NCBI GenBank assembly: GCA_000091205.1 | Contig: AP006501.2 | Origin: Cyanidioschyzon merolae | Taxonomy: Eukaryota | Direction: 5' to 3' (one strand) | Length of the DNA: 64,000 nucleotides | In this document: positions 6,833-28,270 of the stretch, piece by piece | Layout: the number at the start of each line of letters is the position of its first letter | Position numbering within the stretch: position 1 is the first letter of the stretch | Translations under genes and position numbers: made by a program | Notes under the pieces: generated by a model | What the model was told of the DNA's origin: nothing | What the model saw: the letters and a program-made list of their open reading frames with translations, nothing else | The model's database searches: none

Positions 6833-9020
6833 CTCTAACATAGTCTGCTACCTCTATTATGTTCCACCGCAGGTGCGAGTCCTTTACGGCCTCTTCGCGG
6901 TTTACCGCAGATTCATTCGAAGCGCGTTCATCTTGAAGAAATACAGTATTCAAGGGGAAGGTATGCACGTAAAAGCCGAGGATCCTGGAGGACCGTCATC
7001 CCTGGCTGCCCGAAGAAAACGCAAAAAATCCTCTCATCGCCGATCATCGAGCGAAGACAAGCAAGTTACGAGGAAAAAAACAGAATAGGGGACACAGACG
7101 ATAAAAGGTGTTTGCTAGACGTGACAATGACGAGACTGTTGTGGCGCAGGGGGCGCGAGTACTTGGAATTCTTGCAATGTTGAGCTCCACCAGCGTCAAT
7201 GCACGCAAGGAGTTCGTGAATCGAGACGTGAACGCCGCCATCTATACCAAACGATGTGCGGTGCTGAAGAGGATACCCGAGGCGCTGGCGCGAGCCCGTC
7301 TTGTGAGGCAGCCTCTCAGGCTCGAGGTATACATGCAGAATCTGGAACTGATAGCAGGCGGCCGGTCAGACGAGAGAGTGAGGCGTCTGCGAGTGGGTGT
7401 CTATGTACCTATCATGGTCGTGAACCGCTGCTCGTTGTACCGACTATAAACTTAGAGCAGTGGATTCTGGAACAACTTTTCGAGGGCGCGCTTTTGTTTC
7501 GATTGCTTTTCTCGCAGGTGTTCAACCAAGCAATTGTGTACTTTAGGTTCGGGGGAAAGTCGCGAAACGTTTTGAGCTTTTTATGGCTTGCGTGCGCAAA
7601 CCGCCGTCATTCTGAACTGAAGGCAACGCAATCCGATAAAGTGCATGAATCAGCTGTCTCGTAGTGCCTGTTCCTAGAACTGCGCTCCAAAACGAGAACG
7701 TACCAGACGCCACCTACAAGCCTTGCTCGTTTTCAATCCGTTCCACTCCACAGTTCCGTTCAGAAAAAGCAGAGAAAAAACCACACGATATGAAGATTCT
7801 GTACCGTCGATACCGACGGTAATGAAGAGGCACGGGTGGACGACGCAAAAGCACGTTGCTCCGTGAGACCGTCGTACGTTGAACGAGACGCGCACACTCT
7901 CATACGCACACCCGCGATCGATTACATCATGAAAAGCGAGCGGTTACTACGGGACGGACGAGTGCTCGTCGCTCTCAATGAGACTTCATTCAGAGAAGCG
8001 TGCAGACCTGGACACGGGCGCCCTAACAGGGATCATCGATGTTCGCACACCAGGAACACGCGAGTATTCCGAAAAGATCAGCAGTAGCAGCAGCATGGAA
8101 ATCGTGTGGTCGCCTACTTTTCGCCAAACGGGCGGGATTGCCCAACAGCTCATTCGCGGTCGAGGCAGTCCCCAGGATGCAGAGCTGAAGTGGATGCCCT
8201 GCACGCTTGCTCCGGGGTGCGCCTTAGCGACCATGCGGCACATGCGGACGATATTGGGGCAGGGGCACAGCGAACCGCGCTGGGGCCGCCAACGGTTTCG
8301 GTTGTATAGGCCGAACTGGCGTGCAATCGCCTACGTGGTCAGTCAGTTGGACAAAGCATCGACAGACGTGTCGCATCGTTTGGTGGAGGACGAAGGCGCT
8401 CGACGTATTGCTGCGCGCAAAGCACGTACCCGTGTTCGTTGCGCGAGAGCGCACACCGAGTGCAGGAATCGATGCGGTACGTGCTCCCGTTGATGAGTTC
8501 AAAACGACGTATACGCATCACAAGCATGTGTGCACGCCGAAACGGGTAGAGAAGACGAATGTGAAACGGAACCTGATGCACGACGTGGTGTGCGGGAAGC
8601 GGGGCATCGTCAGGTAGCGACGAGGGTGCAGGTGAGCGGCTGGCAACGGCGTGATTCCCCGAGCAGCCACGCGTGCAAGCACATTCTGCGCGGAGACTTG
8701 GGCGTCTCAACGAGCACCCGGAAGCGTCTCGTGCTTCCGGAGCGTCCATCGGTTTTGCATGAAGCGAGCGCTCGAGGTAGTAATCGGTTCGACCTTCGCG
8801 GCGCCATGGTACTGGAACGCAGAAGGCTTGCGATGAAAAGAATCAGTGGCGGCGAGAGAGGGCTCTGGATTCCCGACTGGAGCTATGCACTGGTACGATA
8901 TGGATCAGCAATCGAGTGAGACTCGTGTACTCTCATATATACGCTGTGATTTGGATTCCCTGGCAGTTGGAGAAAGATCGTGCTGATATACTATCCGATT
9001 TTACTGCGGATATGAAGCGA
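6833..9020. repeat. Inverted-repeat arm A (~2.19 kb), near-identical inverted copy at 24630-26838
   Basis: The six-frame ORFs in 6750-8920 reappear on the opposite strand in 24730-26850: the 129-aa ORFs are identical, the 171-aa ORFs differ at 3 residues, and the 136-aa ORFs at about 4. Boundaries were set by manually aligning the flanks against the reverse complement. No convincing protein-coding content. Confidence 0.85.
7205..7420 (+). repeat. ~200-bp dispersed core repeat, copy 1 of 4 (inside arm A)
   Basis: Shares blocks with 12530-12705 (rc), 26260-26450 (rc) and 28021-28200: gagttcgtgaatcgagacgtgaacg, gtgcggtgctgaag, ctcaggctcgaggtatacatg and gatagcaggcggccgg. About 70% identity among the old copies. 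Confidence 0.7.
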
Positions 9021-9666
9021 GATGCAACACAGTGTTTTGATATAAATCCGCGCATTCAAACCTATAGACTTTCAGATGAACTTTGACACTCGCAACACAA
9101 ATCTCGCTCGTTGGAGCTGCTCGACTCGCGGCGTCTAGCCTTCTCGAAACTGGAATGCGACTGCCGGACAGTCACAGTTGCAAAACGTTCGCTGCGAAAT
9201 CGGTCATTGGGACAGTATTTCCAACCATCCACGGCTATTTCATGTGCAAAAGCTCTCCAAGCCGTAGAATTTGCAGTGTTTTCTTTTTTATAGGCATGCA
9301 CATGAGCTTTCTTATTTTGACGCTCCAAAGAACTAGTGTCTGATTCGGCGATCGTTGCGAGCACCGGAACACGCACGGTGCGTCTGTCGAGCTCAGAACG
9401 CAGCAGGGAGCGGAAGCAGCTGCCACAGGCGAAGACGGCTTGTTTCTCGCCGAGCGAGCGACTTAGAGGACGACCATTTGGCTATCTCGCGTGAAAGTCG
9501 TAGTTGTCGCTTGTTGGGAGCAGTATTCAGGCACAACTACTGCTGTTTGCGTACAAGACTCAATTTTCTGTGCGAGCTCCCGTGGAGCAACGGGGAACGC
9601 TACTACGGACCTACTAGTGTTGCTCTCGAAAGCCGACCGGGACGGCTATCCTGCTCGTCCAGGTCT

Positions 9667-10458
9667 ATGAATGACGACTCACGACGCTATCCCAACTTTA
9701 GTGCGTACTTTCGACCAGTGCAAGACGGCGAACCGCTACCGTCTGCACCGGAGAGTTTGGCGCTGTGGGGTCAGCGCACTGTATGGGGCCTTCTCGGTGG
9801 AGCAGCACTGGGCTTTGGCCAGGGACTTCAACGCGCACGTATGCGAAAAGCGTACCCAATGCCTGCGGGTCTCGTGAACTCGCCATCGAGGCGCCTCGCC
9901 TACTTCGTGACGAGTGGCGTGGTGAGCACCAGTGCTCACCTCGGCCTCTTCGTGGCCCTCTATAGCGCTGTCGACCTCGGTGTTCGGGAATGGTTGCGCT
10001 CGGCGCCTGCTGAGCCTTTAGCAGACGGCTGTATACTCTGTAACTGGACCCGATCGGCGGGCGTTGAACAGTCCAGCGGTCTTGCTGCTGGCTCCATAAC
10101 AGGCTTTCTCTTCCGACTTCCTACCGGTTCTGCCTCGCTAGCTCTTTCTGGAGCTGCATACGGCGCTGGCCTTGGTTTCATAGCAGGCTCCATTGAACGA
10201 TGGCTGCGCAAACTCGAGCACGCTGCTCGTTCAAAGTGGACAGCGCAGCAAGCAGCTGACGAGGTCGACCATAAAGAAGTCGAGCAGGCTGGCACAGCTA
10301 CAGCATCCTCGCCGAAGTCAGGCGCTGTTGATGCCTATATTCTAGCGCTCCAGCAACGGGTTCAGCCAAATACGCATCAGGGATTAGAAGAATGGAGAGC
10401 AAATGGCGAGGTCTCTTCTGAGGAGTCGGAGAAGAATACATCACCCGGTAGCCCTTGA
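9667..10458 (+). CDS. Tim17/Tim22/Tim23/OEP16 (PRAT) family-like small membrane protein (tentative)
   Basis: Gly-rich predicted TM segments (GLLGGAALGFGQGL, GLAAGSITGFLF, GAAYGAGLGFIAGS) with GxxxG spacing typical of preprotein-translocase-family proteins. Start placed at the internal ATG at 9667, because the upstream part of the 9355 ORF looks non-coding. Assignment rests on composition and motif, not on alignment. Confidence 0.35.
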   Translation: MNDDSRRYPNFSAYFRPVQDGEPLPSAPESLALWGQRTVWGLLGGAALGFGQGLQRARMRKAYPMPAGLVNSPSRRLAYFVTSGVVSTSAHLGLFVALYSAVDLGVREWLRSAPAEPLADGCILCNWTRSAGVEQSSGLAAGSITGFLFRLPTGSASLALSGAAYGAGLGFIAGSIERWLRKLEHAARSKWTAQQAADEVDHKEVEQAGTATASSPKSGAVDAYILALQQRVQPNTHQGLEEWRANGEVSSEESEKNTSPGSP

Positions 10459-11463
10459 AATCTTCGGAAAACTGCGAAGAGCGTACGGAGACTCGCTGGA
10501 TATTGGAGACGCCAGCGCTGTGGCGCGCCGTCTTCGCGCATAGTGGCGCCGTTTCGCGCTGTTGATGACTTTCACATTCGAGCAATGTAGTGCATTACTG
10601 TCTCACACGAGACTGTGCGAGAAAGTTTTCACACAAGCTGCTGATTCGAGAGCTCCCATCACGGATGCGATAGAAGACCGGCTGCATCCTAATGAATCAG
10701 ATCTATGACGAATCTCTTGTTCCTGCTCGTCATTTGAGGAAAACTTCCTCAAGCAGATGTGGTATATACCGGTTTCCGATGGCGCAAGATGAGAATTCTA
10801 TTTTTTCGGTGAAATATTTTCTCGGAGGCAGATGCGGCCTGCCTTCCCAAAAGCACGCAAAACGTTCAAACTAGGAGGAGGATGTACCAAAGCGACATCG
10901 TGTGCGGAGTTTATTGGAGCGTAGCTGTGTCCTCAGCTGCGTCTGCGAGCAGTCCATCTCTCATTGCTGATGGGAAACAGGGCCCTATCCAAAGGTCAAA
11001 AAAGCGTCCTACGAGGTTTCATAGCGCTCTCCCCAATCAATGCAAACCTCTCCGCTTGAAGACGCGACATGGGAAGCTCGCGTTTTGATTGTTATCTGTT
11101 GAGGAAACGTGGAAATTCTTCAGCATTTATTGCTACTCGGGCATTGCTATCTGCAGGGCTAGTAAGCGGAATGTAGTGCATCCCTATCATTCAAGTCGCT
11201 CAACACGGGCGCACAGGCGAAACCGCGGCACCGTGGTTCGCGATCGCCGAAGGCTGCATTTTAGATTTCTTGTCGGTTTACGATCGATGAAACGAGCTTA
11301 TTTACTTTGTATGCGCCGCTGCTGTCTACAGGGAAGGCAGAAGCCACTGCTCGTCAACTGCATTTTTGATTGGAGGAGCCTTGCAATCGGCGTCGGTTTT
11401 TGTAATGACACGGAGGCGTTGCGATGGAGTCCACGGGCGGGCACCAAGCCAAGCAATGTAGGT

Positions 11464-11952
11464 TCATGTCGGAGACACATGCGGGGTACCAGCGCCCTGG
11501 TCCACGGATTCGGTTGCCGCAGGAAGTTTCGTACGCGACTGTCTTGCGTCGCCCCAAATTTGGTAGCAGTAGAAGCCAACGCCGAGCCAGAGCGTCAAAA
11601 GCGCCAAAAAAGCTGCTGTCTTCGCGCTTTGCTGAGATGAACTGTAGACTAACGCAAGGACCAGTATAGGGCAGACTCCGTTGAAGGCTATGACGCTCCA
11701 GAATAACCCCCAGGGCGACCTTTTGGGTTTCTCCACGGGGTTTCGCTCTGACGCACCCACGCAGAGCGTACAGCCTCCCGCAGAGGTATGCTTCGGCGCC
11801 TTCGACGAAATCGGCTCCACTCCCGCTGTTCCGTACATGTTGGACAGCTTCTCCCAGTCGTGCCAAGTGACTGGAGCTCTTGCCTGCGGTGCTTGCTGTT
11901 TTCCTGGCACCAGCGATGTCTCGGTCGACAGCTGTGGCGTTTCGGGTCGCAA
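11464..11952 (-). CDS. Hypothetical small membrane protein
   Basis: 162-aa ORF with two strongly hydrophobic stretches (GLFWSVIAFNGVCPILVLALVY, AAFLALLTLWLGVGFYCY). No recognisable family and it overlaps other ORFs; may be spurious. Confidence 0.15.
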   Translation of the reverse strand: MRPETPQLSTETSLVPGKQQAPQARAPVTWHDWEKLSNMYGTAGVEPISSKAPKHTSAGGCTLCVGASERNPVEKPKRSPWGLFWSVIAFNGVCPILVLALVYSSSQQSAKTAAFLALLTLWLGVGFYCYQIWGDARQSRTKLPAATESVDQGAGTPHVSPT

Positions 11953-12439
11953 CTACGTTATGAGCTGCAACGGAGGGCACGATCTCTGCTCTTCAGCAAT
12001 TGGCGCCCTAGTTTCCAGTTCCTATTTCTGCCAGAGTAACCTGCTCGTATGGGAAAGCTGGCCTCGTGAACGCGACTCGCAGGCCGGTACGCAAGATTGC
12101 TCGAGGTTGCAGGTTTTGCAGCGTGGCACTCGCGTAGGGTGCCAAATTTTTAGCTGCGTTTCGAAGGTTCCAAAGCCGACGACTAAGCGAAGCTCTCCGA
12201 CGCTCTGGCAGTTTCCAAGTACGTCAAAAAACAGCCAGCGGTCGTTCCCGTCAACAAGCATAGCAACTCGAGCACTGCGCGAGCGTTTTCATGAGCGTTT
12301 ACTAGAGCAGTAGAGCACGCTTCCAAGACTCACAGCCAGTTTTACGTAACATCGTGCTATTCAGTTGCCCGCCGCTGTGCTCGAGCCCGGACTCCACAAA
12401 ATTATCGCTCTTTACAGATTCCTTGGTTGAAGCAACCAG

Positions 12440-13893
12440 TCAATAAATAAAAATATATCGTCATTGGAACAAAAAATGTTTGTCGAACAGTGAGAGTAAA
12501 CATATAAACTCAAGCGCAGACGACTTCCAGCCATTTTTGACCGGGCACCTGCTATCGGTTTCAGCTTCTCCTTATACACTTCAAGCCTGAAAGGCAGCTT
12601 CACGAAGTTCTCTGGCGTCAGCTATGCGATTCTCGTCTTCAGCACCGCACATCGTCTGATGTTGATATCGGTTTCGAAGTCTCGGCTCACGATCTCCTTG
12701 CATACATTGCTGCTAGTTAACGTTATTTATGCAAGGGTTCCTTGAACTCGTGCCCTTTGTGCCCCTACAGTCTCGTCATCCTACTGTCGGGCAGACACCT
12801 TGCATCGCACATCTCTCATCGTCATCTTTTCCGTGGTCACTTGCTCCTCATCGCTCGATGGTCGCCAAGGAGAGAATTTTTCGCTTGTTCGTCGAACCCG
12901 CAGGCAAGGGGCCTCCAGGACCCTCCACTTCCATGTCCATAAGTTTCCTTTATACAGTATGGTCTTGAAAATGAATGCACCTCTTTATGAACTCAGGTGA
13001 GAAAATTCCTCAAGCGTGAAGCTCTTGCGTAGGAGAGACGAAATGTGCCCCAGTGTGTCGTCGTGTGCTGAAAGCTTCAGCGATTCGGCCAGCGGAGGGA
13101 TCATTACGTTTCACGATCCAAAACGGTCATTCGAAGACGTTGAATCACGGCAATTACGGAGGGATGAAAAGCTACTGTACCCAGGCAGGATCCGCAAATG
13201 CTCGAAACCAAGTCGAATTGTTAAATACCATGTTGATCAATGGAAGGACGTCGCCAGACGTCAGGAGTAAAGTCTTTAATGATTCCACAAACTTGGTGGC
13301 GCTGTTGTATGAGCCTTCTTCACTTGCGAAACTGAGGCCATCAAATGAATCCATTCCAGCTTGAACTGATGAAGATATCATCGTTCTCTTCGAGTACCTT
13401 CATGCATGCATCGGGCCCCCAGTCAGCGAATACCCATCCATGCCCCGATCGTTTTTCCGAAGAAGGTTTCATCGATTTGAAAAACATACCAATGTCTCTG
13501 TGCTTCATATCGATCGCAGCGTTCCGAGAATTCTGTCGTTGCGATTTCGGTGGAAGCTGACGTTCATTGAACTTTGACTTTCTTGTAAGCGTATCCTAGT
13601 GTTTTCAAGACTACACGAACAAACTGCTGAGTAACCGAGACGCCCGTGGAGACTTTCATCGTCCTTTTTGCTTTCCGTAAGGCGATTAACGGGACGTTTT
13701 CTACCACCGACAGCAGGCAATCTCCGAGAATATTGGTTTTTTGCCTGTAGTGTACATGCTTCTCTCCTTCCAGTGTTCCTGAACCATCTGAAACTGTGGT
13801 ATGACTGACCTGCAGAAGGAATGCAGTATTCCGTGTATTGCTCAGTAAAGAACATATACTGGGCATTTCGTCTACATTCTGTGGGGTATCTTG
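12440..13893. repeat. Repeat element B (~1.45 kb), near-identical inverted copy at 26880-28270; possible decayed Tc1/mariner-like element
   Basis: ORFs 13016-13902 recur inverted at 26912-27788: the 103-aa ORFs are identical, and the 116-aa and 93-aa ORFs differ at 1 residue. Minus-strand peptides resemble Tc1/mariner transposase pieces. The HTH-like segment KVSTGVSVTQQFVRVVLKTLGYAYKKV matches ..KVSISTVKRVL....L.G...KKP, and the C-terminal RRCAVLK segment matches RRCQAVID. Size fits Tc1/mariner. I could not find clean terminal inverted repeats or TA duplications. Confidence 0.6.
12530..12705 (-). repeat. ~200-bp dispersed core repeat, copy 2 of 4 (terminal part of element B)
   Basis: The reverse complement aligns with 7205-7420 and 28021-28200. 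Blocks gtgcggtgctgaagacgag and gatagcaggtgcccgg are conserved. Confidence 0.7.
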
Positions 13894-13908
13894 CCGGGCC
13901 ACTTCGAT
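13894..13908. repeat. Target-site duplication (left) of the LINE
   Basis: Exact 15-mer ccgggccacttcgat, also present at 18982-18996, immediately abutting the element termini. Confidence 0.8.
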
Positions 13909-14935
13909 TTTTCTTTAATCACTGACGAAATGTTTACCTAAGCCAGCGTTCTCCGATTATGCGCATTTTTCGTTTCTTAATTTTTTTGTGTTTTTTGTCA
14001 GTGTGAGGTGGGATATCCATCAACCCCCTACCTCCATGTTACATTACCTATACTTCGTCTCGGATATTCTGGTCGTTTCATGCGTCCTATCGGGTGCCGA
14101 GCCTGCCGAAAGCGACAGCAATAGCGCCTATAGCGCCGGTGCAGTCGCTGCACGGAGACAGAACGGCGTTGCCGTACCACAAAGAGCGTCTGCTCGAGGT
14201 GTGCTTCACCCGACGTAGAATCGGGTCTCGTCGTCAGTTTGTGCTCGGATAGTCTGCAAATGCAGGCTTGCCTTCGCTGCAATACACGCTGTAGAAACTT
14301 GGCTGTTAGGATATATCCTGAGAGCCGCCTCTCTCCTTCGTGATCATGCATGGAATGCGTTGTTGTCGGTTGGCAATGCGGGTTTGTGCTTGACACCCAT
14401 CACAGTGGGTAGGCACAAAGAGCACTAAACCCGTGTGCTCATCCGATTCGTTGGACCTGCTGCCTAGAAGGTAGAGTTTGAGTTTATTGGCCACTCATGA
14501 GCGCTGAGGCTCCGTTAGCGCACCATCAGTTGCCAGTGCTACACTCAGAGTGAGTGTCCGGCCTTCGACAATCACGGTGATGTCCAGCTGCTGCTGTCCT
14601 CCAAGGAACTCGCTGCGCTCCTGCTTCGAGCGCGGGCACTGTAAGCTTAAATATGTCAGCGTCTCGGGGATTTCGTCTCGATAGCAGGTACAGTGTGACT
14701 CCCAGTGCGGTTCCAGTGTTCCCGTACGGAGTAGAGCCGGTGCTGGTAGCCAGAAGCCACCAACGCGGATTTTGGCGAGCCACTGGGTACCGCGAGCAAG
14801 TCCCGGGAATTCCAGCGCCTCCCACCAGTACTTGCTTGTGTATGCTAGGTTGTAGTTCCGGTATAGAGTCAAGCCGGCGTTACTGGCGCGACTGGTACCG
14901 TGTCTACCTTCCCATATTGGCGTTCGGACCGTTCG

Positions 14936-17202
14936 CTAGAGGCGGCGGGAGCCTTGTACATTTCTGGGGAACGATTGGAGCGCATTTTCGCGTAAGAGGC
15001 GCTTTAGCCAAATCTGCGCTGATTTCATCCAAGTTTTCTTGCGGTGCGTTGGGGTCTGCATGAAAATCCGACTCAAAGGGGTGCGCATAGTGGGCCCTTT
15101 GGCCCGTATACATGCCCAGCAGCCTGCTGCTATCGCTTCTATCGAGGCTATTTGGAGTTCAAGTCCGAGTGCCAGCGGGTTGGTTGCTCTGCGCTGCATT
15201 GAGCATCCAACAACAACAACGAGTCGCATTGCCCTGTTGGCAGCTGTCTGCAGACGCGAGGCATTTGTGTGCTTCATGCCGCACCATTCAGCACCCCAGG
15301 TCGAAGGCTGGATGATACACATCCTTAGTGCCCTCGTACGGATTGCTAAGGGGATAGAGGGGTCGGATGGGAATGGGCGTGCGATCGCTGTACGTCTATG
15401 CATCTTGGCGATCATCTCGTCGACGTGAGCCTTTTCGTCGAGCGTCGGCGTGAGACAGACCCCCAGGTAGCGATATTTTTCCACGATCGGAATTTCCTGA
15501 TTCTGCAACCGCCATGAGCGATTGCGAATGCTCTGTGAGTCTCCATGGATGACCATGGCGCCGCACTTCAATGCTCCTATGTTCATAACCCAGCGATCGG
15601 CCCAGGCGCTGACTTGTTGCATGCTAGCCGCAAGCGTTTCCGGGGCGGGTGCCAACAGCACGACGTCGTCGGCAAGTAGAAGGCCTGCGAGGCGGTTTCT
15701 ATGTGAGGGCTCCTCATCGGGCATCTCCACAGTCTATCCACGGCACCTCAAGTCCGTATTGTCTGCGGTTGTTCAGCAGATCGTTGATGAAGATGTTGAA
15801 AAGGCGCGGGGATGCGCGGTCGCCCTGTCGCAGTCCACGGCGGATTCTTATCGAAGGGGTTCTTGAGCAGTCGCCCAGTCGGGTGCACATCCACGAGTCT
15901 GCATAGAGCGCACGGAAGAACGCTAAGCACTTTCCGGAGACTCCGGCACGTTCCATCTTCAGAAATGGAGCCTCGTGCGGGACCGTTTCAAAGGCCTTTT
16001 GAAAGTCGATGAAGCATACGTAAGTTGGTTGTTGGCAGCTAATGGAGCGACGTTGCACCACTTCAATGAAGGTCAGGTCATGGCTCATGTACTCCTCGCG
16101 GCTCCGGAATCCAGCCTGTTCTGGGGCGAGGAATTTGCGTTCCTCGAGGCCCCTCTGAGTCCGGTTCGTGAGGTTGGCGCAAAGTAGCTTCATGATTTAC
16201 GGGATGAGGCGCATAGTCCGGTAGATATTCATGTCTGTGGGGTTCGGAGTCCTTTTTGAGGATCGGTACGACCTCGGCAGTCCTCCATACATCTGGGATG
16301 TACGCTTCTTCGAACATGCGTTGGATGAGCTCCAGAAGGCGCTTGCCTAAGATTGTGTCAGGTTCATCTGGTATCGATAGTGTCCCTGTTGTCTCGTCTT
16401 TTGGGGTCGCCAGTTTCATCCACTCCGTAGGGATACCGTCAAAGCCAGGTGTTTTGCGGTTGCATGACCTTAAGAGGGTCCGGACAGATTCAGGCCAGAA
16501 GATTGGGTCGTTCCATACCGGTACCGGGTCGAGGCGCGGTAGTTCTGCAGCATATTGGTGCCAATAGATTGGGTCTTGGCAGTGCCCAGTTGCGTCTTCA
16601 TGCAGCTCTGTCCCGTGGTCTATCCAGGCCTCATTCACTGAGGCACTCTCCGTCCTCAGCGCTTCCTTATAAACAATTGGTGTGAGCCCCAGGCACTTTC
16701 TTGGTGGGTCCAGTCTCGATCGAATGGAGCGCCATGTCTCATCTTCGTTGGTGCTCTCCAGCATAGATTTCGCCAGGGAGGCGATTCTGCGATTTCGATC
16801 CTCCTGTTTGTCTTCTCTGGAAAGTTTCTTCTTTCTTTTGATAGCTTCCTCATGTTGTGCCTGTAGCGCCGTTAGGACTGCCTTCGCTTCCTTGTCTCCG
16901 GCGTTGGCGCGTATGGCGGTGCGGTTGACGATCTTGTTGAGTCGGTGGCATCCATCAATCTGTGCTTTTTTACGTCGTTTCAGGTACTGAGGTTTGCAAC
17001 TGTTGCGTTCTGGTGCAAGCAGTCCCAGTTCTCTGGCAATCTTCTGATTCCCATCTACATACTCGCGTGCCAATTGGTCAAAAGATTTGTATGCACGGCT
17101 TTTCGGATCTTCAACGCTGTGAGCAGGTGCCTGGGTTTGGCGACGGCTTTCTTGAGTTCCAGCTGGGGTGCCCTCTCGGGGGATACCTTGTGATGAGCTC
17201 AT
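14936..17202 (-). pseudogene. LINE ORF2 reverse-transcriptase segments (three overlapping frames)
   Basis: RT motifs are spread over three ORFs (16078-17202, 15714-16193, 14936-15730) whose ends overlap in different frames. This is consistent with frameshift mutations or assembly indels. Confidence 0.8.
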
Positions 17203-17365
17203 TTGGGAGTTCTTTTTTCTATTCTTCTGTTTTTTTCTTGCTGGTCTTTTTCTTCTTCGGGCTCTTTCCTGAGCTGCTTTCTCTGGTTATTCTTCTGGTA
17301 CGTGGATCATGATGCCAGCGTGTCTATCCTTCCGTATCGCCTTGAGTCTCTTTTCCTATTGTAGA

Positions 17366-18981: not shown

Positions 18982-18996
18982 CCGGGCCACTTCGAT
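18982..18996. repeat. Target-site duplication (right) of the LINE
   Basis: Exact 15-mer ccgggccacttcgat, matching 13894-13908. Confidence 0.8.
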
Positions 18997-19189
18997 CTCA
19001 AGCTATTCACCGCATCGAGGTTGAAACAAAATTCAGCTGGAAAAATATAATGCTGTAGGTGTTGCAGCCTTTTTGGCGTCCCGTCTTACGCAGCAGACTC
19101 TAGGTTGTCATAGGCTTTCGGAGGCACTCGCAGAACGAGCGTCATCTCGGTAGACAAATCAGTCTCAACTCCTCAATTTCTAGACGTGC

Positions 19190-20041: not shown

Positions 20042-20908
20042 ATGACGCACTCCACATTGAGAAAGAGACAGCTCATTGTATTCGCCTTCCATGTTCGCCG
20101 CGCCCCTCAGTTGGAAGCGATGAAGCACGGAAGCCTTCAGTGGCATCTACTTTATGGCGATTGTCAGTGAAATTGCTCAGCAGAGTTCGCCCTCGCTGTG
20201 CTGCTGTTCGTACTGGAGGCGTATACACTACCCACGAACCATATCCATGATAGCATCACTGTTTGCGTTGATCGATCATTTAGCGCATTGCAGGACTGGC
20301 ATCTCGTACTGACTAACATGCTACTGGTCCGTCTCGCACAGCGCAGCGTGAGAAAAATTCATGTCATAATGCGGGCACCTTCGGCGCCATTATGCCGCCG
20401 CCTTGTGCATTTTTGAGTACGCGCTGCATAGAATGTGAAGCGGTGCGAGCGACAGCTGGTTGAGGAAATATGCAGGGCTTTGTTCCGATCACTTTAAAGG
20501 CGACTGCAACAAAACAGAGCTCTGCATTATGGCCAAAAAAAGCGATGATCCCCCCGCAAGAAATGTTACATTCGTGAAAATTGTTCACGTTCAGGCAGGA
20601 TTCTGCTGATGGAGCTCATACGCTTTGGCGTTTGAACGAATCGGCCAAAGTGTGAGCAATGCTTGTGGAGGTGGCGCTCTAATGCGACTAAGACTTCCTA
20701 CGATGCACCGGAGGCCAGCTCTTTAACATTCAAAAACATAATCACTCTCACATCTTGACGGTTCTCCGAGAGCGTTGTGCTTTGCGCATGAGGTTTCCTG
20801 CAAGTCGCGATTATTACTACGGAATGGGTGAATCCACGAAACGAACGCTAGAGAAGTTGTGCTGGCAACACCACGAATACACAGTTTCGAAAAATGTTAA
20901 CACCAGTC

Positions 20909-22456
20909 TCACTGGTGTTTCCGAACGTCATCTATGGGCTTCCTTTCGAGCCCAAGCGTACGTAGGATAACCAATAAAATTAGCTCCTTTGCCATGGCGA
21001 ACATGATATACGGCCGGAAGAGTTGGCTCTTAGGCCGCTGGCCAGTCATGATGCGCGCCCATTCCGCCAAGAATTCATCACCTTGCTTCTCAATGCACAG
21101 CGTCGCCGCATCCAGCAGAATTGGGAAGCGATACAGAATTTGGGCGAGCCGCATGCTCGCTTTGAAGTCATAGCCAAAAGCCCGCATCCAGCGACGTTGA
21201 TAGTTGGACAGGAAACGGGCGGACAAGTCCGAATGTTTGAATGCTTCTTTGAGCACCTCTGCAGCCATCACTCCGGAATCCATTGCATGATGGATGCCCT
21301 CGCCAGTCAGGGGATCGATGAAGCCAGCAGCATCACCAACGATCAGCAAATTATCCGCATAGGATCGTGGCACACCACCCAGTCGCAAAGAGCCAGCCTT
21401 CATGGGCTCTAACTCTGCCCTGGGGCCGAGCGCTCGCGATAAATAGAAGTCCTCTTTCACGAACCCGTGATGCAGGCGGCTCAAATCATCGTTACGCACC
21501 CGCGGATTACCAGGGATGATGTAACAGCAATAGTTCAGCTCGTCGTTCACTTCCCGGAAAATAGCCATGTAGCCCGGTAACAGGTTCAGATTGTAGATCA
21601 CCGTTCCATCCGCAGCATAATTGTGTGAGCCGGCCTTCACATACGCGCGAGAGCACGTACCCTGAGGCGCCTCTTTCACAATACCAAGCTGCATTGCCAA
21701 CCTTGATGGCGCTCCATCGGCACAAACCAACACCCGAGCCTGGTAAGAGGCCTCCTCAGGAGCGCTTCCAGTTCGCTCACCGCTAATGCTCCATAAAGCC
21801 TTTCCTGTGTCGAAACGCGCGCTCTCTACACTTACCTCTTCGAGGAGATTCGCGCCAGCGTAAGCGGCTGATCTTGCCAACTTCTCGTCCAGTACGATGC
21901 GCTTTATCGCAATGACTGCAGATCGAGCCAATTTACCGGAATCACCCTCACCGACCGAGTTACCGATATAAGAATAGCCAGCGGGCGAGACGAGTCCCCC
22001 GTTCGATGCCGGGTGGCCCTTGCCTTCGCGTAGAATCTCGTCCAGTACGCTGCCTTTACCGGTCGCACTCTCCATTCTCTCCATTATATCTTGTGCCAGC
22101 GTGCACACGGCATCACCGCAGATTTTCTGGCGGGGAAACTTTTTCTTCTCTAGGAGAAGAACACGTAAGCCCGCCCGCGCACAAAAGTACGCAGTCACTG
22201 AACCGGCCGGTCCAGCGCCTACTATGCAAACATCGTAAGCATCTTTTGGCAAAGGCGGGTACGACTTGGGACTCGGCTTTACAAGAGTTGTTTCCTTTCT
22301 CCAGGTACGCAGCACCCAGAATATAGAGAGCAACGCGACAAGCACACAGCTCAGCGCTAGCAATGGTATAGGTTTTGTTGCCAGTGCCTCTAAAACTGGC
22401 TCTCGTAGTTTTGCGAAACGAGCGCCAACGCCCTGACTGAGCGCAACGAAGTACAT
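20909..22456 (-). CDS. FAD-dependent oxidoreductase of the geranylgeranyl reductase family (ChlP-like), with an N-terminal TM segment
   Basis: Dinucleotide-binding motif YDVCIVGAGPAGSVTAYFCARAG. KICGDAV matches the GGR CGG/CGD motif. LIVGDAAGFIDPLTGEGIHHAMDSG matches GDAAG..P..GEGI. N-terminal hydrophobic helix PIPLLALSCVLVALLSIFWVL. Confidence 0.7.
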   Translation of the reverse strand: MYFVALSQGVGARFAKLREPVLEALATKPIPLLALSCVLVALLSIFWVLRTWRKETTLVKPSPKSYPPLPKDAYDVCIVGAGPAGSVTAYFCARAGLRVLLLEKKKFPRQKICGDAVCTLAQDIMERMESATGKGSVLDEILREGKGHPASNGGLVSPAGYSYIGNSVGEGDSGKLARSAVIAIKRIVLDEKLARSAAYAGANLLEEVSVESARFDTGKALWSISGERTGSAPEEASYQARVLVCADGAPSRLAMQLGIVKEAPQGTCSRAYVKAGSHNYAADGTVIYNLNLLPGYMAIFREVNDELNYCCYIIPGNPRVRNDDLSRLHHGFVKEDFYLSRALGPRAELEPMKAGSLRLGGVPRSYADNLLIVGDAAGFIDPLTGEGIHHAMDSGVMAAEVLKEAFKHSDLSARFLSNYQRRWMRAFGYDFKASMRLAQILYRFPILLDAATLCIEKQGDEFLAEWARIMTGQRPKSQLFRPYIMFAMAKELILLVILRTLGLERKPIDDVRKHQ

Positions 22457-24629
22457 TTATATTCGGTTGTTGTACGAGATCAAAGCTGGGCTCTGTGCGT
22501 TCAGTTAGAGCTGACTGAATAAGTGCCTCTGCTGAGCGAAATATGCCACTGCCGTTGCAGACTCCGCGTGCAGTTCGTCCATTCGCAAATGCGTGTGAGT
22601 GTGCGTACAATGCGTACGTGCGTGTGTGCATCGCCCACAGCGACGAGCGCCAGCCGTACGAGCGCTTTGGGCCTGCGCGCCATTGCTGCGCCATTCGGTG
22701 GCTGGCTCATGATCGCCGCCGTGCGTGCAGACCTTGAGCGCACCCGCGTCGGAATAAATTGGAGAGAGGCCACGCTCCCAACTCTGGCGTAAAGAATAGA
22801 GAGTGAATCTCTTTATCAAAAAGAAGCGCATTTTCAAGCTTTTTTATGAATTCTTGATTTTTTCTCTTTTCTGTCTTGGAAAACACCGGGCTCTTTTTCC
22901 CATCTAGCTCTGTTGTCAGCAGTCGAGGGGTGTTGATGACAGCGTTCGAGTCCCAATTTTAAGGCTTTCTGATGTTGTCGACGCCGTACATTCGCAGACG
23001 GCTGTTGCGATCTAAGAGAGATCGCCATTTCGATTTCTTCGTATACGGCCTCAATGCGCCATCTGCAGCTGTGATTCTTGGTTATTTTGTGGTGTTCACG
23101 TACGTCAACTACACCTTATCTTCCTCGGGCCGCTCTGCGGCGAGATAACGTTTGCGATGTCATTCAGTGTGTGCCCCCGAGGGTAACGGCGGTTCGCCTC
23201 GATGACCTCCTCCGTATCCGCACCCGACGCCGACCTCCAGCATCACAGTCATCTTCCGGGAAATCCCACGATGGCTAAGCTGTCCGCTGGACACGCAAGC
23301 ACGCGCACCTCCATTCTTTGGAGGATTTGTGGAAAACGATTTTCTCTATGATGAAAAGAGAATCGAAAGGGAAACCCGGGTTGAGAAGCAGTCAGGATTT
23401 TTTGACAAAAGTATGCTGCATTCGTGCAAAGCGGTGATGCAATCACCGCTCGAAGCGGTCGATGCGATGAATCAAGTCCGAGCCCAAGACTCTTTCCCCG
23501 ACACACTTTAGAGATGGGAGCAAATGCGAGCATATCCCGTAAGAGGTATGACGCTCCAATGGAATGCAGTTAGGTCGATATCCATAAAATAGTAGGATTT
23601 AGGGTTCGAAAAGAAGCTTTTATTCTTCTCCTGAGATGTTCAGTGAGGTTTCGGCACGAGCATGTGATGATGTCGTCAAGCTTTCCCCTCATCTATCCAG
23701 GGTGCGACTTGTTCCGCGTACGAGCCTTCTTAAAAAAGACAGATCGAAAACATGAAGAATGCGTGATTTGCGCACGCAGAACGCAAGGGATGGTAATGAG
23801 CGGAGACTTGTTCGAATGAATTGGATAAGAATTTCAGTCATTTTACGAACCCTGCTTCGAAGGCGTCGAGAATCATCTTGATTTTCGGTAAGGTTATGAA
23901 TTCCAGCCGAAAAAGGCAAAGAAGCGACGAAGGAATGAGAAGCGAGAATCCTTAAGTTACGCATGAATGAATAGCCCTTCTTGCTGCACTTCGAATATCG
24001 ACACCGTATATCTGAGGAAAAGTTCCAAAGAGAAGTCAAGAGGGAGCAGTTCTGTTCTCCGTTTTGGTCTGATACAATTGTAAGAGCGGTGCTTGGCGAT
24101 TTCTTCGACACGACGTCGCCGAGTCCCGAGCAAGTGCCCGCTCCGCCAGAGGCACTGGTGGTTGTGTGCGCCAAACTCGACTCTTCTCGACGGACAATTC
24201 ACTGATTCTTTGGGCGTTTGCTTCCTTCAATACGCTTTTGAGGAGGCAGTATCAAACGCCCACTCCACCAGATGCATTCTGAGTTGATTGAAGAAACCTC
24301 GACTCGTCTCCAACAGTACTTTTCGGACTGCCGGGCTATCGACACATTTTCCAGAGGCATCCACTCATACTGGCATGACGCCCCAGCCGCATGCTGGCGA
24401 AGGAAATGAATGGATTTTTTCTCTGCATCTTAATCCACTAGCGCCTGTTCCCTGGGGGACCAAGACTGTAGCAGAAGGCGAAAAATTGGCCAGTGTAAAG
24501 ACTCTATTAGGTTTCCGGACAATGATCATGCAGTTAAAAAATTGCCTCGCCTTCCAGAGCACGTCTGTTGTGTACAAATTTTGTAAGCAGTTTTGGAAAC
24601 GGCTAGGGCTCACGGAAACGTTTCAGCTC

Positions 24630-26838
24630 AACCGCTCGTATATCCGCAGCAAAATCGGATAGTATATCAGCACGATCTTTCTCCAACTGCCAGGGAATCC
24701 AAATCACAGCGTATATATGAGGGTGCAAAAGTCTCACTCGATTGCTGATCCATATCGTACCAGTGCATAGCTCCAGTCGGGAATCCAGAGCCCTCTCTCG
24801 CCGCCACTGATTCTTTTCATCGCAAGCCTTCTGCGTTCCAGTACCATGGCGCCGCGAAGGTCGAACCGATTACTACCTCGAGCGCTCGCTTCATGCAAAA
24901 CCGATGGACGCTCCGGAAGCACGAGACGTTTCCGGGTGCTCGTTGAGACGCCCAAGTCTCCGCGCAGAATGTGCTTGCACGCGTGGCTGCTCGGGGAATC
25001 ACGCCGTTGCCAGCCGCTCACCTGCACCCTCGTCGCTACCTGACGATGCCCCGCTTCCCGCACACCACGTCGTGCATCAGGTTCCGTTTCACATTCATCT
25101 TCTCTACCCGTTTCAGCGTGCACACATTCTTGTGATGCGTATACGTCGTTTTGAACTCATCAACGGGAGCACGTACTGCATCGATTCCTGCACTCGGTGT
25201 GCGCTCTCGCGCAACGAACACGGGTACGTGCTTTGCGCGCAGCAATACGTCGAGCGCCTTCGTCCTCCACCAAACGATGCGACACGTCTGTCGATGCTTT
25301 GTCCAACTGACTGACCACGTAGGCGATTGCACGCCAGTTCGACCTATACAACCGAAACCGTTGGCGGCCCCAGCGCGGTTCGCTGTGCCCCTGCCCCAAG
25401 ATCGTCCGCATGTGCCGCATGGTCGCTAAGGCGCACCCCGGAGCAAGCGTGCAGGGCATCCACTTCAGCTCTGCATCCTGGGGACTGCCTCGACCGCGAA
25501 TGAGCTGTTGGGCAATCCCGCCCGTTTGGCGAAAAGTAGGCGACCACACGATTTCCATGCTGCTGCTACTGCTGATCCTTTCGGAATACTCGCGTGTTCC
25601 TGGTGTGCGAACATCGATGATCCCTGTTAGGGCGCCCGTGTCCAGGTCTGCACGCTTCTCTGAATGAAGTCTCATTGAGAGCGACGAGCACTCGTCCGTC
25701 CCGTAGTAACCGCTCGCTTTTCATGATGTAATCGATCGCGGGTGTGCGTATGAGAGTGTGCGCGTCTCGTTCAACGTACGACGGTCTCACGGAGCAACGT
25801 GCTTTTGCGTCGTCCACCCGTGCCTCTTCATTACCGTCGGTATCGACGGTACAGAATCTTCATATCGTGTGGTTTTTTCTCTGCTTTTTCTGAACGGAAC
25901 TGTGGAGTGGAACGGATTGAAAACGAGCAAGGCTTGTAGGTGGCGTCTGGTACGTTCTCGTTTTGGAGCGCAGTTCTAGGAACAGGCACTACGAGACAGC
26001 TGATTCATGCACTTTATCGGATTGCGTTGCCTTCAGTTAAGAATGACGGCGGTTTGCGCAAGCAAGCCATAAAAAGCTCAAAACGTTTCGCGACTTTCCC
26101 CCGAATCTATAGTACACAATTGCTTGGTTGAACACCTGCGAGAAAAGCAATCGAAACAAAAGCGCGCCCTCGAACAGTTGTTCCAGAATCCACTGCTCTA
26201 AGTTTATAGTCGGTACAACGAGCAGCGGTTCACGACCATGATAGGTACATAGACACCCACTCGCAGACGCCTCACTCTCTCGTCTGACCGGCCGCCTGCT
26301 ATCAGTTCCAGATTCTGCATGTATACCTCGAGCCTGAGAGGCTGCCTCACAAGACGGGCTCGCGCCAGCGCCTCGGGTATCCTCTTCAGCACCGCACATC
26401 GTTTGGTATAGATGGCGGCGTTCACGTCTCGATTCACGAACTCCTTGCGTGCATTGACGCTGGTGGAGCTCAACATTGCAAGAATTCCAAGTACTCGCGC
26501 CCCCTGCGCCACAACAGTCTCGTCATTGTCACGTCTAGCAAACACCTTTTATCGTCTGTGTCCCCTATTCTTCTTTTTTTCCTCGTAACTTGCTTGTCTT
26601 CGCTCGATGATCGGCGATGAGAGGATTTTTTGCGTTTTCTTCGGGCAGCCAGGGATGACGGTCCTCCAGGATCCTCGGCTTTTACGTGCATACCTTCCCC
26701 TTGAATACTGTATTTCTTCAAGATGAACGCGCTTCGAATGAATCTGCGGTAAACCGCGAAGAGGCCGTAAAGGACTCGCACCTGCGGTGGAACATAATAG
26801 AGGTAGCAGACTGTTAGAGACACTCGGGACTGTGCCAG
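24630..26838. repeat. Inverted-repeat arm A' (inverted copy of 6833-9020)
   Basis: See arm A. The A' end at 26838 lies only ~40 bp from the start of B' at 26880. Confidence 0.85.
26260..26450 (-). repeat. ~200-bp dispersed core repeat, copy 3 of 4 (inside arm A')
   Basis: Reverse complement of the 7205-7420 core, as part of the A/A' duplication. Confidence 0.7.
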
Positions 26839-26879
26839 ATCATATGCTTTCAATCCAATTTCGTTTCAGCCTCTGCTGC

Positions 26880-28270
26880 AGCGTATAGCAAGATATCGAA
26901 ATCACTATTGAATGAGCCCTGTAGATCGTAGTCGAATTGCCTGTAGGATATATTCTTTACTGAGCAATACACGGAATACTGCATTCCTTCTGCAGGTCAG
27001 TCATACCACAGTTTCAGATGGTTCAGGAACACTGGAAGGAGAGAAGCATGTACACTACAGGCAAAAACCAATATTCTCGGAGATTGCCTGCTGTCGGTGG
27101 TAGAAAACGTCCCGTTAATCGCCTTACGGAAAGCAAAAAGGACGATGAAAGTCTCCACGGGCGTCTCGGTTACTCAGCAGTTTGTTCGTGTAGTCTTGAA
27201 AACACTGGGATACGCTTACAAGAAAGTCAAAGTTCAATGAACGTCAGCTTCCACCGAAATCGCAACGACAGAATTCTCGGAACGCTGCGATCGATATGAA
27301 GCACAGAGACATTGGTATGTTTTTCAAATCGATGAAACCTTCTTCGGAAAAACGATCGGGGCATGGATGGGTATTCGCTGACTGGGGGCCCGATGCATGC
27401 ATGAAGGTACTCGAAGAGAACGATGATATCTTCATCAGTTCAAGCTGGAATGGATTCATTTGATGGCCTCAGTTTCGCAAGTGAAGAAGGCTCATACAAC
27501 AGCGCCACCAAGTTTGTGGAATCATTAAAGACTTTACTCCTGACGTCTGGCGACGTCCTTCCATTGATCAACATGGTATTTAACAATTCGACTTGGTTTC
27601 GAGCATTTGCGGATCCTGCCTGGGTACAGTAGCTTTTCATCCCTCCGTAATTGCCGTGATTCAACGTCTTCGAATGACCGTTTTGGATCGTGAAACGTAA
27701 TGATCCCTCCGCTGGCCGAATCGCTGAAGCTTTCAGCACACGACGACACACTGGGGCACATTTCGTCTCTCCTACGCAAGAGCTTCACGCTTGAGGAATT
27801 TTCTCACCTGAGTTCATAAAGAATTGTGCTCATTTGAAAATATGTAAAACCCAGGAGACGAGCTGGGGGTGTACAGTTTTGAGGTGGAAATGGAAAAAGA
27901 GCCAGCGGAGCGTTTTAGCGATAGCGAAGCATGGGGAGCTGACGGAGCACCGAATGTCACGTAGGGCACGAGTTCGAGGACTACTTTCTCTGGTGATTTC
28001 CTCCAGCGGCAATTTACGCACTGAGTTCGTGAGCCGAAACTTCAACGTCGCTATCAATATCAGGAGATATGCGGTGCTGAAGACGAGCCCCCAAGACCTG
28101 ACGAAATCTACCTTGGTATTGTAGCCTCTCAGGCTCGAAGTCTACATGGAAAAAGTGACACCATTATCAGGAAGCCGATCACGTTAAGGCGGAGAGGTGT
28201 TTGTGCATAGGCATTAATTTAACGTAAACGGCGGGAATTTTTTTGTTCCATTGAACGTGTATGCGTGTGC
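26880..28270. repeat. Repeat element B' (inverted copy of 12440-13893)
   Basis: See element B. Terminal homology: tttttgttccattgaacg (about 28245) matches tttttgttccaatgacg in the reverse complement of about 12460. Confidence 0.6.
28021..28200 (+). repeat. ~200-bp dispersed core repeat, copy 4 of 4 (terminal part of element B')
   Basis: Aligns with 7205-7420 (gagttcgtgagccgaaac..gcggtgctgaagacgag..ctcaggctcgaagtctacatgg). Confidence 0.7.

What the first reader, a model, noticed from the sequence alone, without database searches (positions are those of the whole stretch)
7205..28200. ~200-bp core sequence present four times (7205-7420, 12530-12705 rc, 26260-26450 rc, 28021-28200), conserved at both nucleotide and short-peptide level
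Four loci share gtgcggtgctgaag…ctcaggctcga(g/a)gt(a/c)tacatg…gatagcagg(c/t)g(g/c)ccgg. Two are the recent A/A' copies, but the other two are about 70% diverged, so this is an old repeat family. In one frame the copies give KEFVNRDVNAAIYTKRCAVLKR, TEFVSRNFNVAINIRRYAVLKT and KEIVSRDFETDINIRRCAVLKT, but stops and frame changes follow. The pattern is therefore a decayed transposase 3' end plus terminal region (Tc1-like) rather than a host gene. The alternative is a conserved cis element such as a promoter or structured RNA that rides on transposon ends. The copy at 28021-28200 lies roughly 250-440 bp upstream of the ORC1 ATG.
Basis: seen in the sequence. Interest (0 to 1): 0.5.

Follow-up and report, generated by a model that had tools for sequence, protein, structure and literature searches.

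The report
Decayed Fanzor1 transposon tail ends
The four repeats are decayed tail ends of an already described transposon family of the red alga Cyanidioschyzon merolae (CMe-1), whose gene encoded a Fanzor1 RNA-guided nuclease rather than a Tc1 transposase, so they are ordinary genomic fossils and not a host regulatory element.

Summary
The window is nuclear DNA of Cyanidioschyzon merolae 10D. The four copies exist as described: A and A' are 99% identical, and B and D are about 70% identical to A and to each other. The shared core is the last ~85 codons of the Fanzor1 (TnpB-like) ORF of the published repeat family CMe-1A (Bao & Jurka 2013; about 150 copies, 3169-bp consensus). The peptide "FVNRD-NAAINI" is the RuvC-III catalytic motif. 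A full-length relative modelled with AlphaFold matches solved Fanzor1 structures (SpuFz, E about 1e-10). A, A' and B are internally deleted "mini" elements: the start codon plus about 45 codons, fused to the last ~100 codons and the 3' tail. At least five independent metagenome copies share the same deletion junction. In B and D a decayed Tc1/mariner-type transposase (Pfam DDE_3, E 6e-14) lies directly upstream, and independent metagenome loci show the same composite. "Tc1-like" is therefore right only for the carrier. Seventy-one metagenome copies end at one sharp 3' terminus. I found no sign of extra nucleotide constraint and no support for a conserved RNA structure. A Fanzor guide RNA (omega-RNA) overlapping this region is plausible by analogy but unproven. 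The finding is already known and of low interest.

The parts
6894..7444 (+). Copy A: internally deleted 'mini' CMe-1-type element. It consists of leader, ATG (6963) and about 45 N-terminal Fanzor1 codons (consensus 843-969 = 6894-7026), joined to the last ~90 codons (consensus 2842-3084 = 7151-7390) and a 3' tail ending near 7444.
   Evidence: blastn/tblastn against the CMe-1A consensus and protein; alignments; motif coordinates
26209..26760 (-). Copy A': 99% identical inverted duplicate of A.
12459..12980 (-). Copy B: mini element with the same deletion junction as A (consensus 871-937 = 12980-12909; consensus 2903-3093 = 12697-12507). It is broken by several stop codons.
12969..13875 (-). 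Decayed IS630/Tc1/mariner-type (DDE_3) transposase relic directly upstream of B, on the same strand. It is 98.5% identical to the relic upstream of D.
26887..27858 (+). Decayed DDE_3 transposase relic directly upstream of D. Family-level homology to metagenome copies spans 26887-27858.
27860..28257 (+). Copy D: Fanzor1 C-terminal relic (aa 614-723 = 27867-28193; consensus 2739-2983 = 27860-28102) plus a 3' tail ending near 28257, about 200 bp upstream of the ORC1 ATG. Its deletion differs from that of A and B, and it has no ATG or N-terminal piece.
   Evidence: same architecture in L086
51880..53512 (+). Copy E: CMe-1A 5' region (consensus 84-228) plus Fanzor1 codons 1-442 (consensus 837-2250, 77% identity), with stops and frameshifts. 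It lacks the 3' core.
8179..8820 (+). Relic F: C-terminal half of a second Fanzor1 family (29-30% identical to P0070/P0072). It lies inside the A/A' duplicated block, and its RuvC-III remnant is at 8677-8748.
24875..25474 (-). Relic F': the inverted duplicate of F.
54980..55903 (+). Relic G: internally deleted copy of the second Fanzor1 family. It has an N-terminal piece at 54980-55300 and a C-terminal piece at 55263-55903, with the RuvC-III remnant at 55802-55873.
13905..14225 (+). Solo CMe-1A 5'-end piece of the kind published as TE-N2_CMe (consensus ~1-282), lying head-to-head with B's transposase relic.
2746..2861 (-). A second solo CMe-1A 5'-end fragment (consensus 141-256, 78% identity).

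Best explanation
The repeated core is the decayed 3' end of Fanzor1 elements of the CMe-1 family of Cyanidioschyzon merolae. It covers the last ~85-120 codons of the Fanzor1 ORF, including the RuvC-III catalytic motif, plus the short 3' tail of the element.

Fanzor1 is the eukaryotic TnpB homologue, an RNA-guided DNA endonuclease carried by transposons.

- A, A' and B are an old, amplified deletion subfamily. The start codon and about 45 codons are fused to the last ~100 codons.
- D belongs to a second deletion subfamily that keeps only the last ~120 codons.
- In B and D the relic forms the 3' part of a composite whose 5' part is an IS630/Tc1/mariner-type DDE transposase gene. This is the "Fanzor1 captured by Mariner" arrangement known from other eukaryotes.

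All copies in the window are dead, with stops, frameshifts and about 30% divergence. Their similarity is inherited, not maintained by selection. A and A', and the transposase parts of B and D, were made near-identical recently, by duplication or gene conversion.

Inferred, not shown: in active ancestors the last ~150-250 nt, overlapping the core, probably also encoded the scaffold of the Fanzor guide RNA (omega-RNA). The reason is that only 59 nt separate the stop codon from the element end.
For: **Organism.** Three proteins encoded in the window (eIF3e, ORC1, geranylgeranyl reductase) are exact matches to proteins named as C. merolae strain 10D.

**Published family.** Bao & Jurka 2013 (PMC3627910) describe CMe-1A as about 150 copies, about 80% identical to a 3169-bp consensus, encoding a 734-aa Fanzor1. 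I took the consensus and protein from their supplements.

**Match to the family.** All four copies hit the 3' end of that consensus and protein: tblastn aa 647-728, 645-729 and 614-723, E 1e-17 to 4e-26.

**Fanzor identity tested here.**
- RuvC D (GADPG), E (DEFRTS) and RD are invariant in an alignment of relatives that are 31-81% identical.
- An AlphaFold model of P0032 (71% identical to CMe-1) has SpuFz, PpFz and GtFz as its top seven Foldseek hits in the PDB, with E 2e-10 to 8e-8. Cas12 follows only weakly.

**Terminus.** In 71 distinct metagenome copies, homology collapses right after ...GAAAGGCG(TT).

**Shared deletion junction.** A, B, L023/L028, L040, L043, L044 and L084/L085 share it, at 66-73% pairwise identity. 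The D-type junction recurs in L086.

**Transposase relic.** A three-lineage consensus translation hits Pfam DDE_3 with E 6.1e-14 (52.5 bits, cut-off 28.6). It is 25% identical to the Fanzor-linked PUl-1 Mariner transposase, E 1e-6.

**Decay.** Differences are spread over codon positions 1/2/3 at about 0.26-0.40 / 0.25-0.34 / 0.31-0.42. Core identity between loci (about 72%) is about the same as in the neighbouring dead transposase (69%).
Against: - Sequence-only searches do not recognise the protein: Pfam found nothing and PDB phmmer/hmmsearch found nothing. The Fanzor assignment therefore rests on motifs, the fold match and the published analysis.
- The structural model is mediocre (mean pLDDT 60.8, pTM 0.39).
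- The window copies are only 67-75% identical to the CMe-1A consensus. They belong to sister lineages of the published consensus, not to CMe-1A proper.
- No terminal inverted repeats or TA target duplications could be found for the mariner-type composite, so its status as one mobile unit is inferred only from recurring junctions.
- The omega-RNA part is unsupported by covariation.
Confidence: 0.92

Rival explanations
1. The core is the decayed 3' end of a Tc1-like transposase gene plus the transposon terminus.
For: A DDE_3 (IS630/Tc1/mariner) transposase relic sits directly upstream of B and D on the same strand. The composite recurs in metagenome loci L023/L028, L044, L084/L085 and L086.
Against: - The DDE_3 match ends before the core. 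The transposase relic stops at about 27858 / 12969.
- The core aligns to Fanzor1 aa 614-734, which is a different ORF.
- In B a separate ATG and N-terminal Fanzor codons lie between the transposase relic and the core.
- A, A' and L040 have the core without any transposase relic.
Confidence: 0.03
2. The core is kept because it encodes a functional structured RNA, for example the Fanzor omega-RNA scaffold used in trans by intact Fanzor1 copies, or another cis element such as a promoter. On this reading its nucleotide conservation is selected.
For: - In Fanzor/TnpB systems the guide RNA is transcribed from the transposon's 3' end and can overlap the ORF end (Saito et al. 2023, PMC10432273).
- In CMe-1A only 59 nt follow the stop codon.
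- The last 264 nt of the consensus fold better than shuffles, with z = -2.59; 3 of 200 shuffles fold as well.
- Both deletion subfamilies retain exactly this region.
Against: - RNAalifold on 35 CMe-1A copies gives -5.7 kcal/mol, with only 2 of 15 pairs showing compensatory change.
- Across both lineages (18 sequences) it gives -9.3 kcal/mol with a covariation term of -0.18.
- The strongest hairpin of the consensus (CUGGAG...CUCCAG) is broken in A, B, D and L023, as read by eye from the alignment. This was not scored with a tool.
- The core is no better conserved than the adjacent dead transposase.
- Substitutions hit all codon positions.
- There is no Rfam match.
- Retention of the 3' end is expected anyway for any element that must keep its terminus to move.
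Confidence: 0.12
3. The copies are members of a host gene family, or copy D is a regulatory module of ORC1.
For: - D ends about 200 bp upstream of the ORC1 ATG.
- A has an uninterrupted 113-codon ORF (7109-7450) that gene callers picked up in metagenome contigs.
Against: - B and D carry in-frame stops and frameshifts.
- All copies map to a transposon consensus with at least 150 genomic copies.
- Different loci have unrelated flanks.
- No fetched locus pairs the relic with ORC1.
Confidence: 0.03
4. The similarity is a chance or low-complexity artefact.
For: None found.
Against: - BLAST E-values against an independent published consensus reach 6e-39.
- The region is not repetitive or compositionally biased.
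Confidence: 0.005

Closest known systems
CMe-1A / CMe-1 Fanzor1 element of Cyanidioschyzon merolae (Bao & Jurka 2013, Mob DNA 4:12)
   Same: - Same genome.
- Same protein C-terminus and the same leader and ATG region.
- Equivalent 3' terminus: ...TTTTTGTTCCAATGACG in B against ...TTTTTCTTTTGAAAGGCG in the consensus.
- An old family with copies of low identity.
   Different: - The window copies are only 67-75% identical to the consensus.
- They lack about 590 internal codons (A, A', B) or the first ~612 codons (D).
- They lack the ~40-nt GC hairpin that follows the stop codon in CMe-1A.
- B and D carry a DDE_3 transposase relic instead of the CMe-1A 5' region. The paper lists CMe-1A as having no terminal inverted repeats (TIRs), undetermined target site duplications (TSDs) and unknown class.
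Fanzor1 captured in Tc1/Mariner elements (PUl-1, PUl-2, PGv-1; Bao & Jurka 2013)
   Same: - The order is transposase then Fanzor1, on one strand.
- The transposase relic is detectably similar to the PUl-1 Mariner transposase (E 1e-6).
   Different: - No TIRs or TA duplications could be shown here.
- Both genes are dead.
- The Fanzor part is reduced to 120-190 codons.
TnpB/Fanzor OMEGA systems (ISDra2 TnpB; SpuFz1, GtFz1; Saito et al. 2023)
   Same: - Protein fold and RuvC triad.
- Position of the RuvC-III 'RD-NAA-NI' motif near the C-terminus.
- Gene at the 3' end of the element.
   Different: - No omega-RNA, target-adjacent motif (TAM) or nuclease activity has been shown for CMe-1.
- The C4 zinc finger is degenerate in this family (HHELGC...C).
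- The window copies cannot encode a nuclease.
Internally deleted non-autonomous DNA transposons (MITE-like derivatives)
   Same: Both element ends are kept, the middle is lost, and one deletion junction is shared by many dispersed copies.
   Different: Which enzyme mobilised these elements is unknown, and no TIRs or TSDs are visible.

Membership tests
Fanzor1 / TnpB superfamily (protein of the parent element) | C-terminal half with conserved D ... E ... RD RuvC catalytic residues (Bao & Jurka motif D-X-[TS][TS]-X-X-[zinc finger]-X-RD) | tested here: met
   GADPG (D), DEFRTS (E) and NRDFNAAINI (RD) are invariant across 10 relatives that are 31-81% identical. The window copies retain only the RD part: NRDVNAA in A, SRDFETD in B and SRNFNVA in D.
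Fanzor1 / TnpB superfamily (protein of the parent element) | Fanzor/TnpB/Cas12-type fold | tested here: met
   The AlphaFold model of P0032 (pLDDT 60.8) has SpuFz 9ceu/8gkh, PpFz and GtFz as its top seven Foldseek PDB hits, E 2e-10 to 8e-8, probability 1.00. The next hit is Cas12o1 at E 0.09.
Fanzor1 / TnpB superfamily (protein of the parent element) | Recognisable by sequence profiles (Pfam OrfB_Zn_ribbon / OrfB_IS605, or solved Fanzor chains) | tested here: not met
   There were no Pfam hits at E <= 0.01 and no PDB sequence hits at E <= 10. The database's precomputed table lists PF26935 for many relatives, but I could not read that family's name.
Fanzor1 / TnpB superfamily (protein of the parent element) | Associated omega-RNA encoded at the 3' end of the element, with the guide starting at the element boundary | tested here: inconclusive
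   - The 3' terminus is sharp.
- The consensus fold has z = -2.59.
- There is essentially no covariation.
- There is no Rfam family match.
- No RNA data are available.
CMe-1A repeat family (Repbase / Bao & Jurka 2013) | Nucleotide similarity to the 3169-bp consensus | tested here: met
   blastn gives A 67.5% over 243 nt, B 71.7% over 191 nt, D 74.9% over 247 nt and E 77.2% over 1424 nt. This is below the ~80% typical of CMe-1A, so A, B and D are best called sister sublineages of CMe-1.
CMe-1A repeat family (Repbase / Bao & Jurka 2013) | CMe-1A 5' region (635 bp = TE-N2_CMe) upstream of the Fanzor ORF | tested here: not met
   It is present in E (consensus 84-228) but absent from A, A', B and D. 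A starts at about consensus 790-843, and B and D have the DDE_3 relic instead.
IS630/Tc1/mariner superfamily (relic upstream of B and D) | DDE_3-type catalytic domain | tested here: met
   The consensus translation of three lineages hits PF13358 with E 6.1e-14, 52.5 bits against a cut-off of 28.6. Metagenome fragments P0077 and P0082 also carry PF13358.
IS630/Tc1/mariner superfamily (relic upstream of B and D) | Terminal inverted repeats and a TA target-site duplication | tested here: not met
   Local alignment of the 5' end against the reverse-complemented 3' end of D, B and L028 scores no better than shuffles. The 5' homology starts after TAT(A/G), but no matching TA is consistently seen at the 3' side. 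The copies are heavily decayed, so this is weak negative evidence.

The most novel reading that the evidence does not exclude
The Fanzor1 3' end may not be mere debris. The published text on this family does not mention two architectures: a DDE_3 transposase plus mini-Fanzor, and a DDE_3 transposase plus only the last ~120 codons. Each has spread as a unit in Cyanidioschyzon-like genomes. The most novel reading the evidence allows has two parts. First, C. merolae Fanzor1 elements are mariner-type composites, which would settle the "class unknown" status of CMe-1. Second, the retained tail was kept because it supplies the right end and/or an omega-RNA that intact Fanzor1 copies use in trans. 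That would make these elements guide-RNA-only satellites of a eukaryotic RNA-guided nuclease.
Probability: 0.12. Interest if true: 0.55.

Novelty: already known. Interest (0 to 1): 0.2.

Why it matters
Mainly as a correct annotation. These stretches, including the one about 200 bp upstream of ORC1, should be masked as Fanzor1-element relics. They should not be treated as candidate promoters, structured RNAs or small genes.

There is some secondary value. The window shows that the CMe-1 family has dispersed deletion subfamilies. It also shows a recurrent physical link to an IS630/Tc1/mariner transposase, which bears on how Fanzor1 elements move in red algae; the 2013 description left the element's class open. 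C. merolae is genetically tractable, so it could be used to test whether a eukaryotic Fanzor1 and its presumed guide RNA are active in their native host.

Tried and rejected
- **Pfam on the short peptides and on full-length relatives:** nothing found.
- **PDB sequence searches:** phmmer and a 10-sequence profile both found nothing. The fold search was needed instead.
- **Rfam on the whole window:** no match at gathering scores.
- **RNA structure:** RNAalifold on 35 CMe-1A 3' ends, and on 18 sequences from both lineages, gave weak consensus structures with almost no covariation. I do not claim a structure.
- **Mariner relic versus the CMe-1A 5' region (consensus 1-905):** I suspected they were homologous. 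The Smith-Waterman score (23) is within shuffles (maximum 28), so I rejected the idea.
- **Tail-to-tail inverted CMe-1A end downstream of A, B and D:** I suspected this from a MAFFT alignment. Local alignment scores are no better than shuffles, so I rejected it as an alignment artefact.
- **Terminal inverted repeats for the composite element:** none found.
- **An intact copy of the mariner-type transposase:** only fragments of 138-255 aa turned up.
- **Technical failures:** the first Pfam call on raw frames failed because of stop codons, and one MAFFT run timed out.

Full report
**Where the window comes from.** The long ORFs at 4831-6501 (-), 20909-22456 (-) and 28457-30820 (+) encode eIF3e, a geranylgeranyl reductase-like protein and ORC1. 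They are exact matches to proteins that the sources name as Cyanidioschyzon merolae strain 10D. These lie on a contig of 1,282,939 bp. The window is therefore nuclear DNA of this almost intron-free red alga.

**The observation.** The four copies are real.
- A (6831-9013, +) and A' (26823-24640, -) are 99% identical over about 2.18 kb.
- B (reverse strand, about 12980-12459) and D (forward strand, about 27860-28257) are 71-72% identical to A and to each other over 140-177 nt.
- The three quoted peptides are read correctly.
- "About 70% diverged" should read "about 70% identical".
- Homology extends well beyond 200 bp.

**What the core is.** The peptide FVNRD-NAAINI looked like the RuvC-III motif of TnpB/Fanzor proteins, so I searched the literature. 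Bao & Jurka 2013 (PMC3627910) describe the family CMe-1A in this very genome. It has about 150 copies, about 80% identical to a 3169-bp consensus. It has no TIRs, undetermined TSDs and unknown class, and it encodes a 734-aa Fanzor1. Its first 635 bp equal another repeat, TE-N2_CMe.

I took the consensus DNA and the protein from their supplements and mapped them onto the window.

| Copy | Matches to CMe-1A consensus or protein |
|---|---|
| A | consensus 843-969 and 2842-3084 |
| B | consensus 871-937 and 2903-3093 |
| D | consensus 2739-2983 (aa 614-723) |
| E (fifth copy, 51880-53512) | 5' region and codons 1-442; lacks the core |

E-values run from 1e-16 to 6e-39. The ORF occupies consensus 906-3110. 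The core is therefore the last ~85 codons of Fanzor1, and only 59 nt follow the stop codon before the element ends.

**Is the parent protein really a Fanzor?**
- Sequence profiles fail. Pfam finds nothing, and PDB phmmer/hmmsearch find nothing.
- A search of the large protein collection with CMe-1 returned 45 relatives, all from metagenomes. They include full-length proteins of 71%, about 43% and 31-33% identity.
- In their alignment the RuvC residues D (GADPG), E (DEFRTS) and RD (NRDFNAAINI) are invariant.
- An AlphaFold model of the 752-aa relative P0032 is mediocre (pLDDT 60.8). Even so, its top seven Foldseek hits in the PDB are solved Fanzor1 structures: SpuFz, PpFz and GtFz, with E 2e-10 to 8e-8. 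Cas12 proteins follow far behind.

Membership in Fanzor1 is thus supported by motifs and by fold.

**Element terminus.** A scan of metagenome contigs with the C-terminal 135 aa gave 273 confirmed loci, of which 80 were fetched. In 71 distinct 3' ends, column identity stays at 0.84-0.94 up to ...GAAAGGCG(TT) and then collapses. It is a sharp, shared 3' terminus.

**Architecture of the window copies.** A, A' and B are not random fragments. They contain about 70 nt of leader, the Fanzor ATG and about 45 codons (MxxxxEDPGGP...KRK...). These are joined to about the last 100 codons and a short tail. The same junction is present in independent metagenome copies L023/L028, L040, L043, L044 and L084/L085, at 66-73% pairwise identity. 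This is therefore an old deletion subfamily that spread after the deletion.

D has a different structure. The leader runs straight into codon ~612, and L086 has the same structure.

Upstream contexts are of two types:
- A and L040 continue into CMe-1A-type sequence, from about consensus 790.
- B, D, L023/L028, L044, L084/L085 and L086 are preceded on the same strand by about 0.95 kb of a decayed transposase gene.

A consensus translation of three lineages of that gene hits Pfam DDE_3 (IS630/Tc1/mariner) at E 6.1e-14. It resembles the Mariner transposase of the Fanzor1-bearing oomycete element PUl-1 at E 1e-6. So "Tc1-like" is right for the carrier of two of the four copies, but the core itself belongs to Fanzor1. 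I could not find TIRs or TA duplications, and no intact transposase copy was found.

**Selection or inheritance?** Three lines of evidence say the similarity is inherited.
- The copies carry stops and frameshifts.
- Differences between copies fall on codon positions 1/2/3 at about 0.26-0.40 / 0.25-0.34 / 0.31-0.42. This is nearly neutral decay, with a faint trace of former protein-level constraint.
- Between loci the core is 72% identical and the adjacent dead transposase 69%.

**RNA structure.**
- The last 264 nt of the consensus fold somewhat better than shuffles (z = -2.59).
- RNAalifold on 35 copies and on 18 sequences from both lineages gives weak structures with essentially no covariation.
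- Rfam has no match.

In Fanzor/TnpB systems the guide RNA is transcribed from the 3' end of the element and may overlap the ORF (Saito et al. 2023, PMC10432273). With only 59 nt after the stop codon, such an RNA in CMe-1 would have to overlap the core. This is a reasonable inference for the active ancestor, but nothing here demonstrates it.

**Recent homogenisation.** A/A' (6824-9015 against 26830-24638) and the transposase parts of B and D (12969-13875 against 27835-26928) are 98.5-99% identical, while the adjoining cores of B and D are 71% identical. The B/D tract ends where the two architectures stop being collinear. That fits gene conversion between inverted copies 14 kb apart.

**Other relics in the window.** The A/A' block also contains a relic of a second Fanzor1 family (F, 8179-8820, mirrored at 25474-24875). 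Another relic of that family lies at 54980-55903.

**Verdict.** The finding is a correct observation of an already published transposon family. The interpretation needs one correction: the peptide comes from Fanzor1, not from a Tc1 transposase. It also needs one caveat: the RNA idea is plausible by analogy but unsupported. Interest is low. The mariner link and the dispersed deletion subfamilies are modest additions to what was published.

Noticed in passing
window 6824-9015 (+) and 24638-26830 (-): A 2.18-kb inverted duplication at 99% identity flanks about 15.6 kb that contains host genes (a Tim17-like ORF and geranylgeranyl reductase). It starts at the 5' end of mini-element A and ends about 145 nt after relic F. 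No target duplication is visible at the junctions. It could be a substrate for inversion of the intervening segment.
   Followed up: partly
window 12969-13875 (-) and 26928-27835 (+): The transposase relics upstream of B and D are 98.5% identical, while the Fanzor cores next to them are only 71% identical. The tract ends where the two architectures cease to be collinear, which suggests recent gene conversion between inverted copies.
   Followed up: partly
window 8179-8820 (+), 24875-25474 (-), 54980-55903 (+): These are relics of a second Fanzor1 family, 29-39% identical to metagenome proteins P0070/P0072/P0073, which are themselves about 43% identical to CMe-1. I did not find this family mentioned in the passages of the 2013 paper that I read for C. 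merolae.
   Followed up: partly
window 13905-14225 (+); L028 5167-5270: A solo CMe-1A 5' end (the piece published as TE-N2_CMe) lies head-to-head with the 5' end of B's transposase relic. The same head-to-head arrangement occurs in the independent metagenome locus L028/L023. This could be chance in a transposon-rich region or part of a larger composite.
   Followed up: no
window 7109-7450 (+): Copy A keeps an uninterrupted 113-codon ORF (KVFARRDNDETV...). Gene callers report it as a gene on metagenome contigs of the same species (L001-L003, 1052-1393). I did not check whether NCBI annotates this ORF; none of the relatives found came from NCBI. It is most likely a chance-intact relic.
   Followed up: partly
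window 32023-32133 and 32197-32307: An inverted repeat with 111-nt arms, 78% complementary and 63 nt apart. It appears unrelated to the finding.
   Followed up: no
proteins P0032-P0076: Many relatives carry a precomputed Pfam label PF26935.1, yet the local Pfam copy gives no hit for the same proteins at E <= 0.01. None of the 45 relatives comes from NCBI, so the Fanzor1 ORFs may be unannotated in the reference genome.
   Followed up: no
L004-L083 (JGI metagenome contigs): Genomes like Cyanidioschyzon are abundant in several JGI metagenomes. At least 273 loci with a CMe-1 Fanzor1 C-terminus were confirmed among the first 600 pattern matches. This gives far more copies for family reconstruction than the single reference genome does.
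   Followed up: partly
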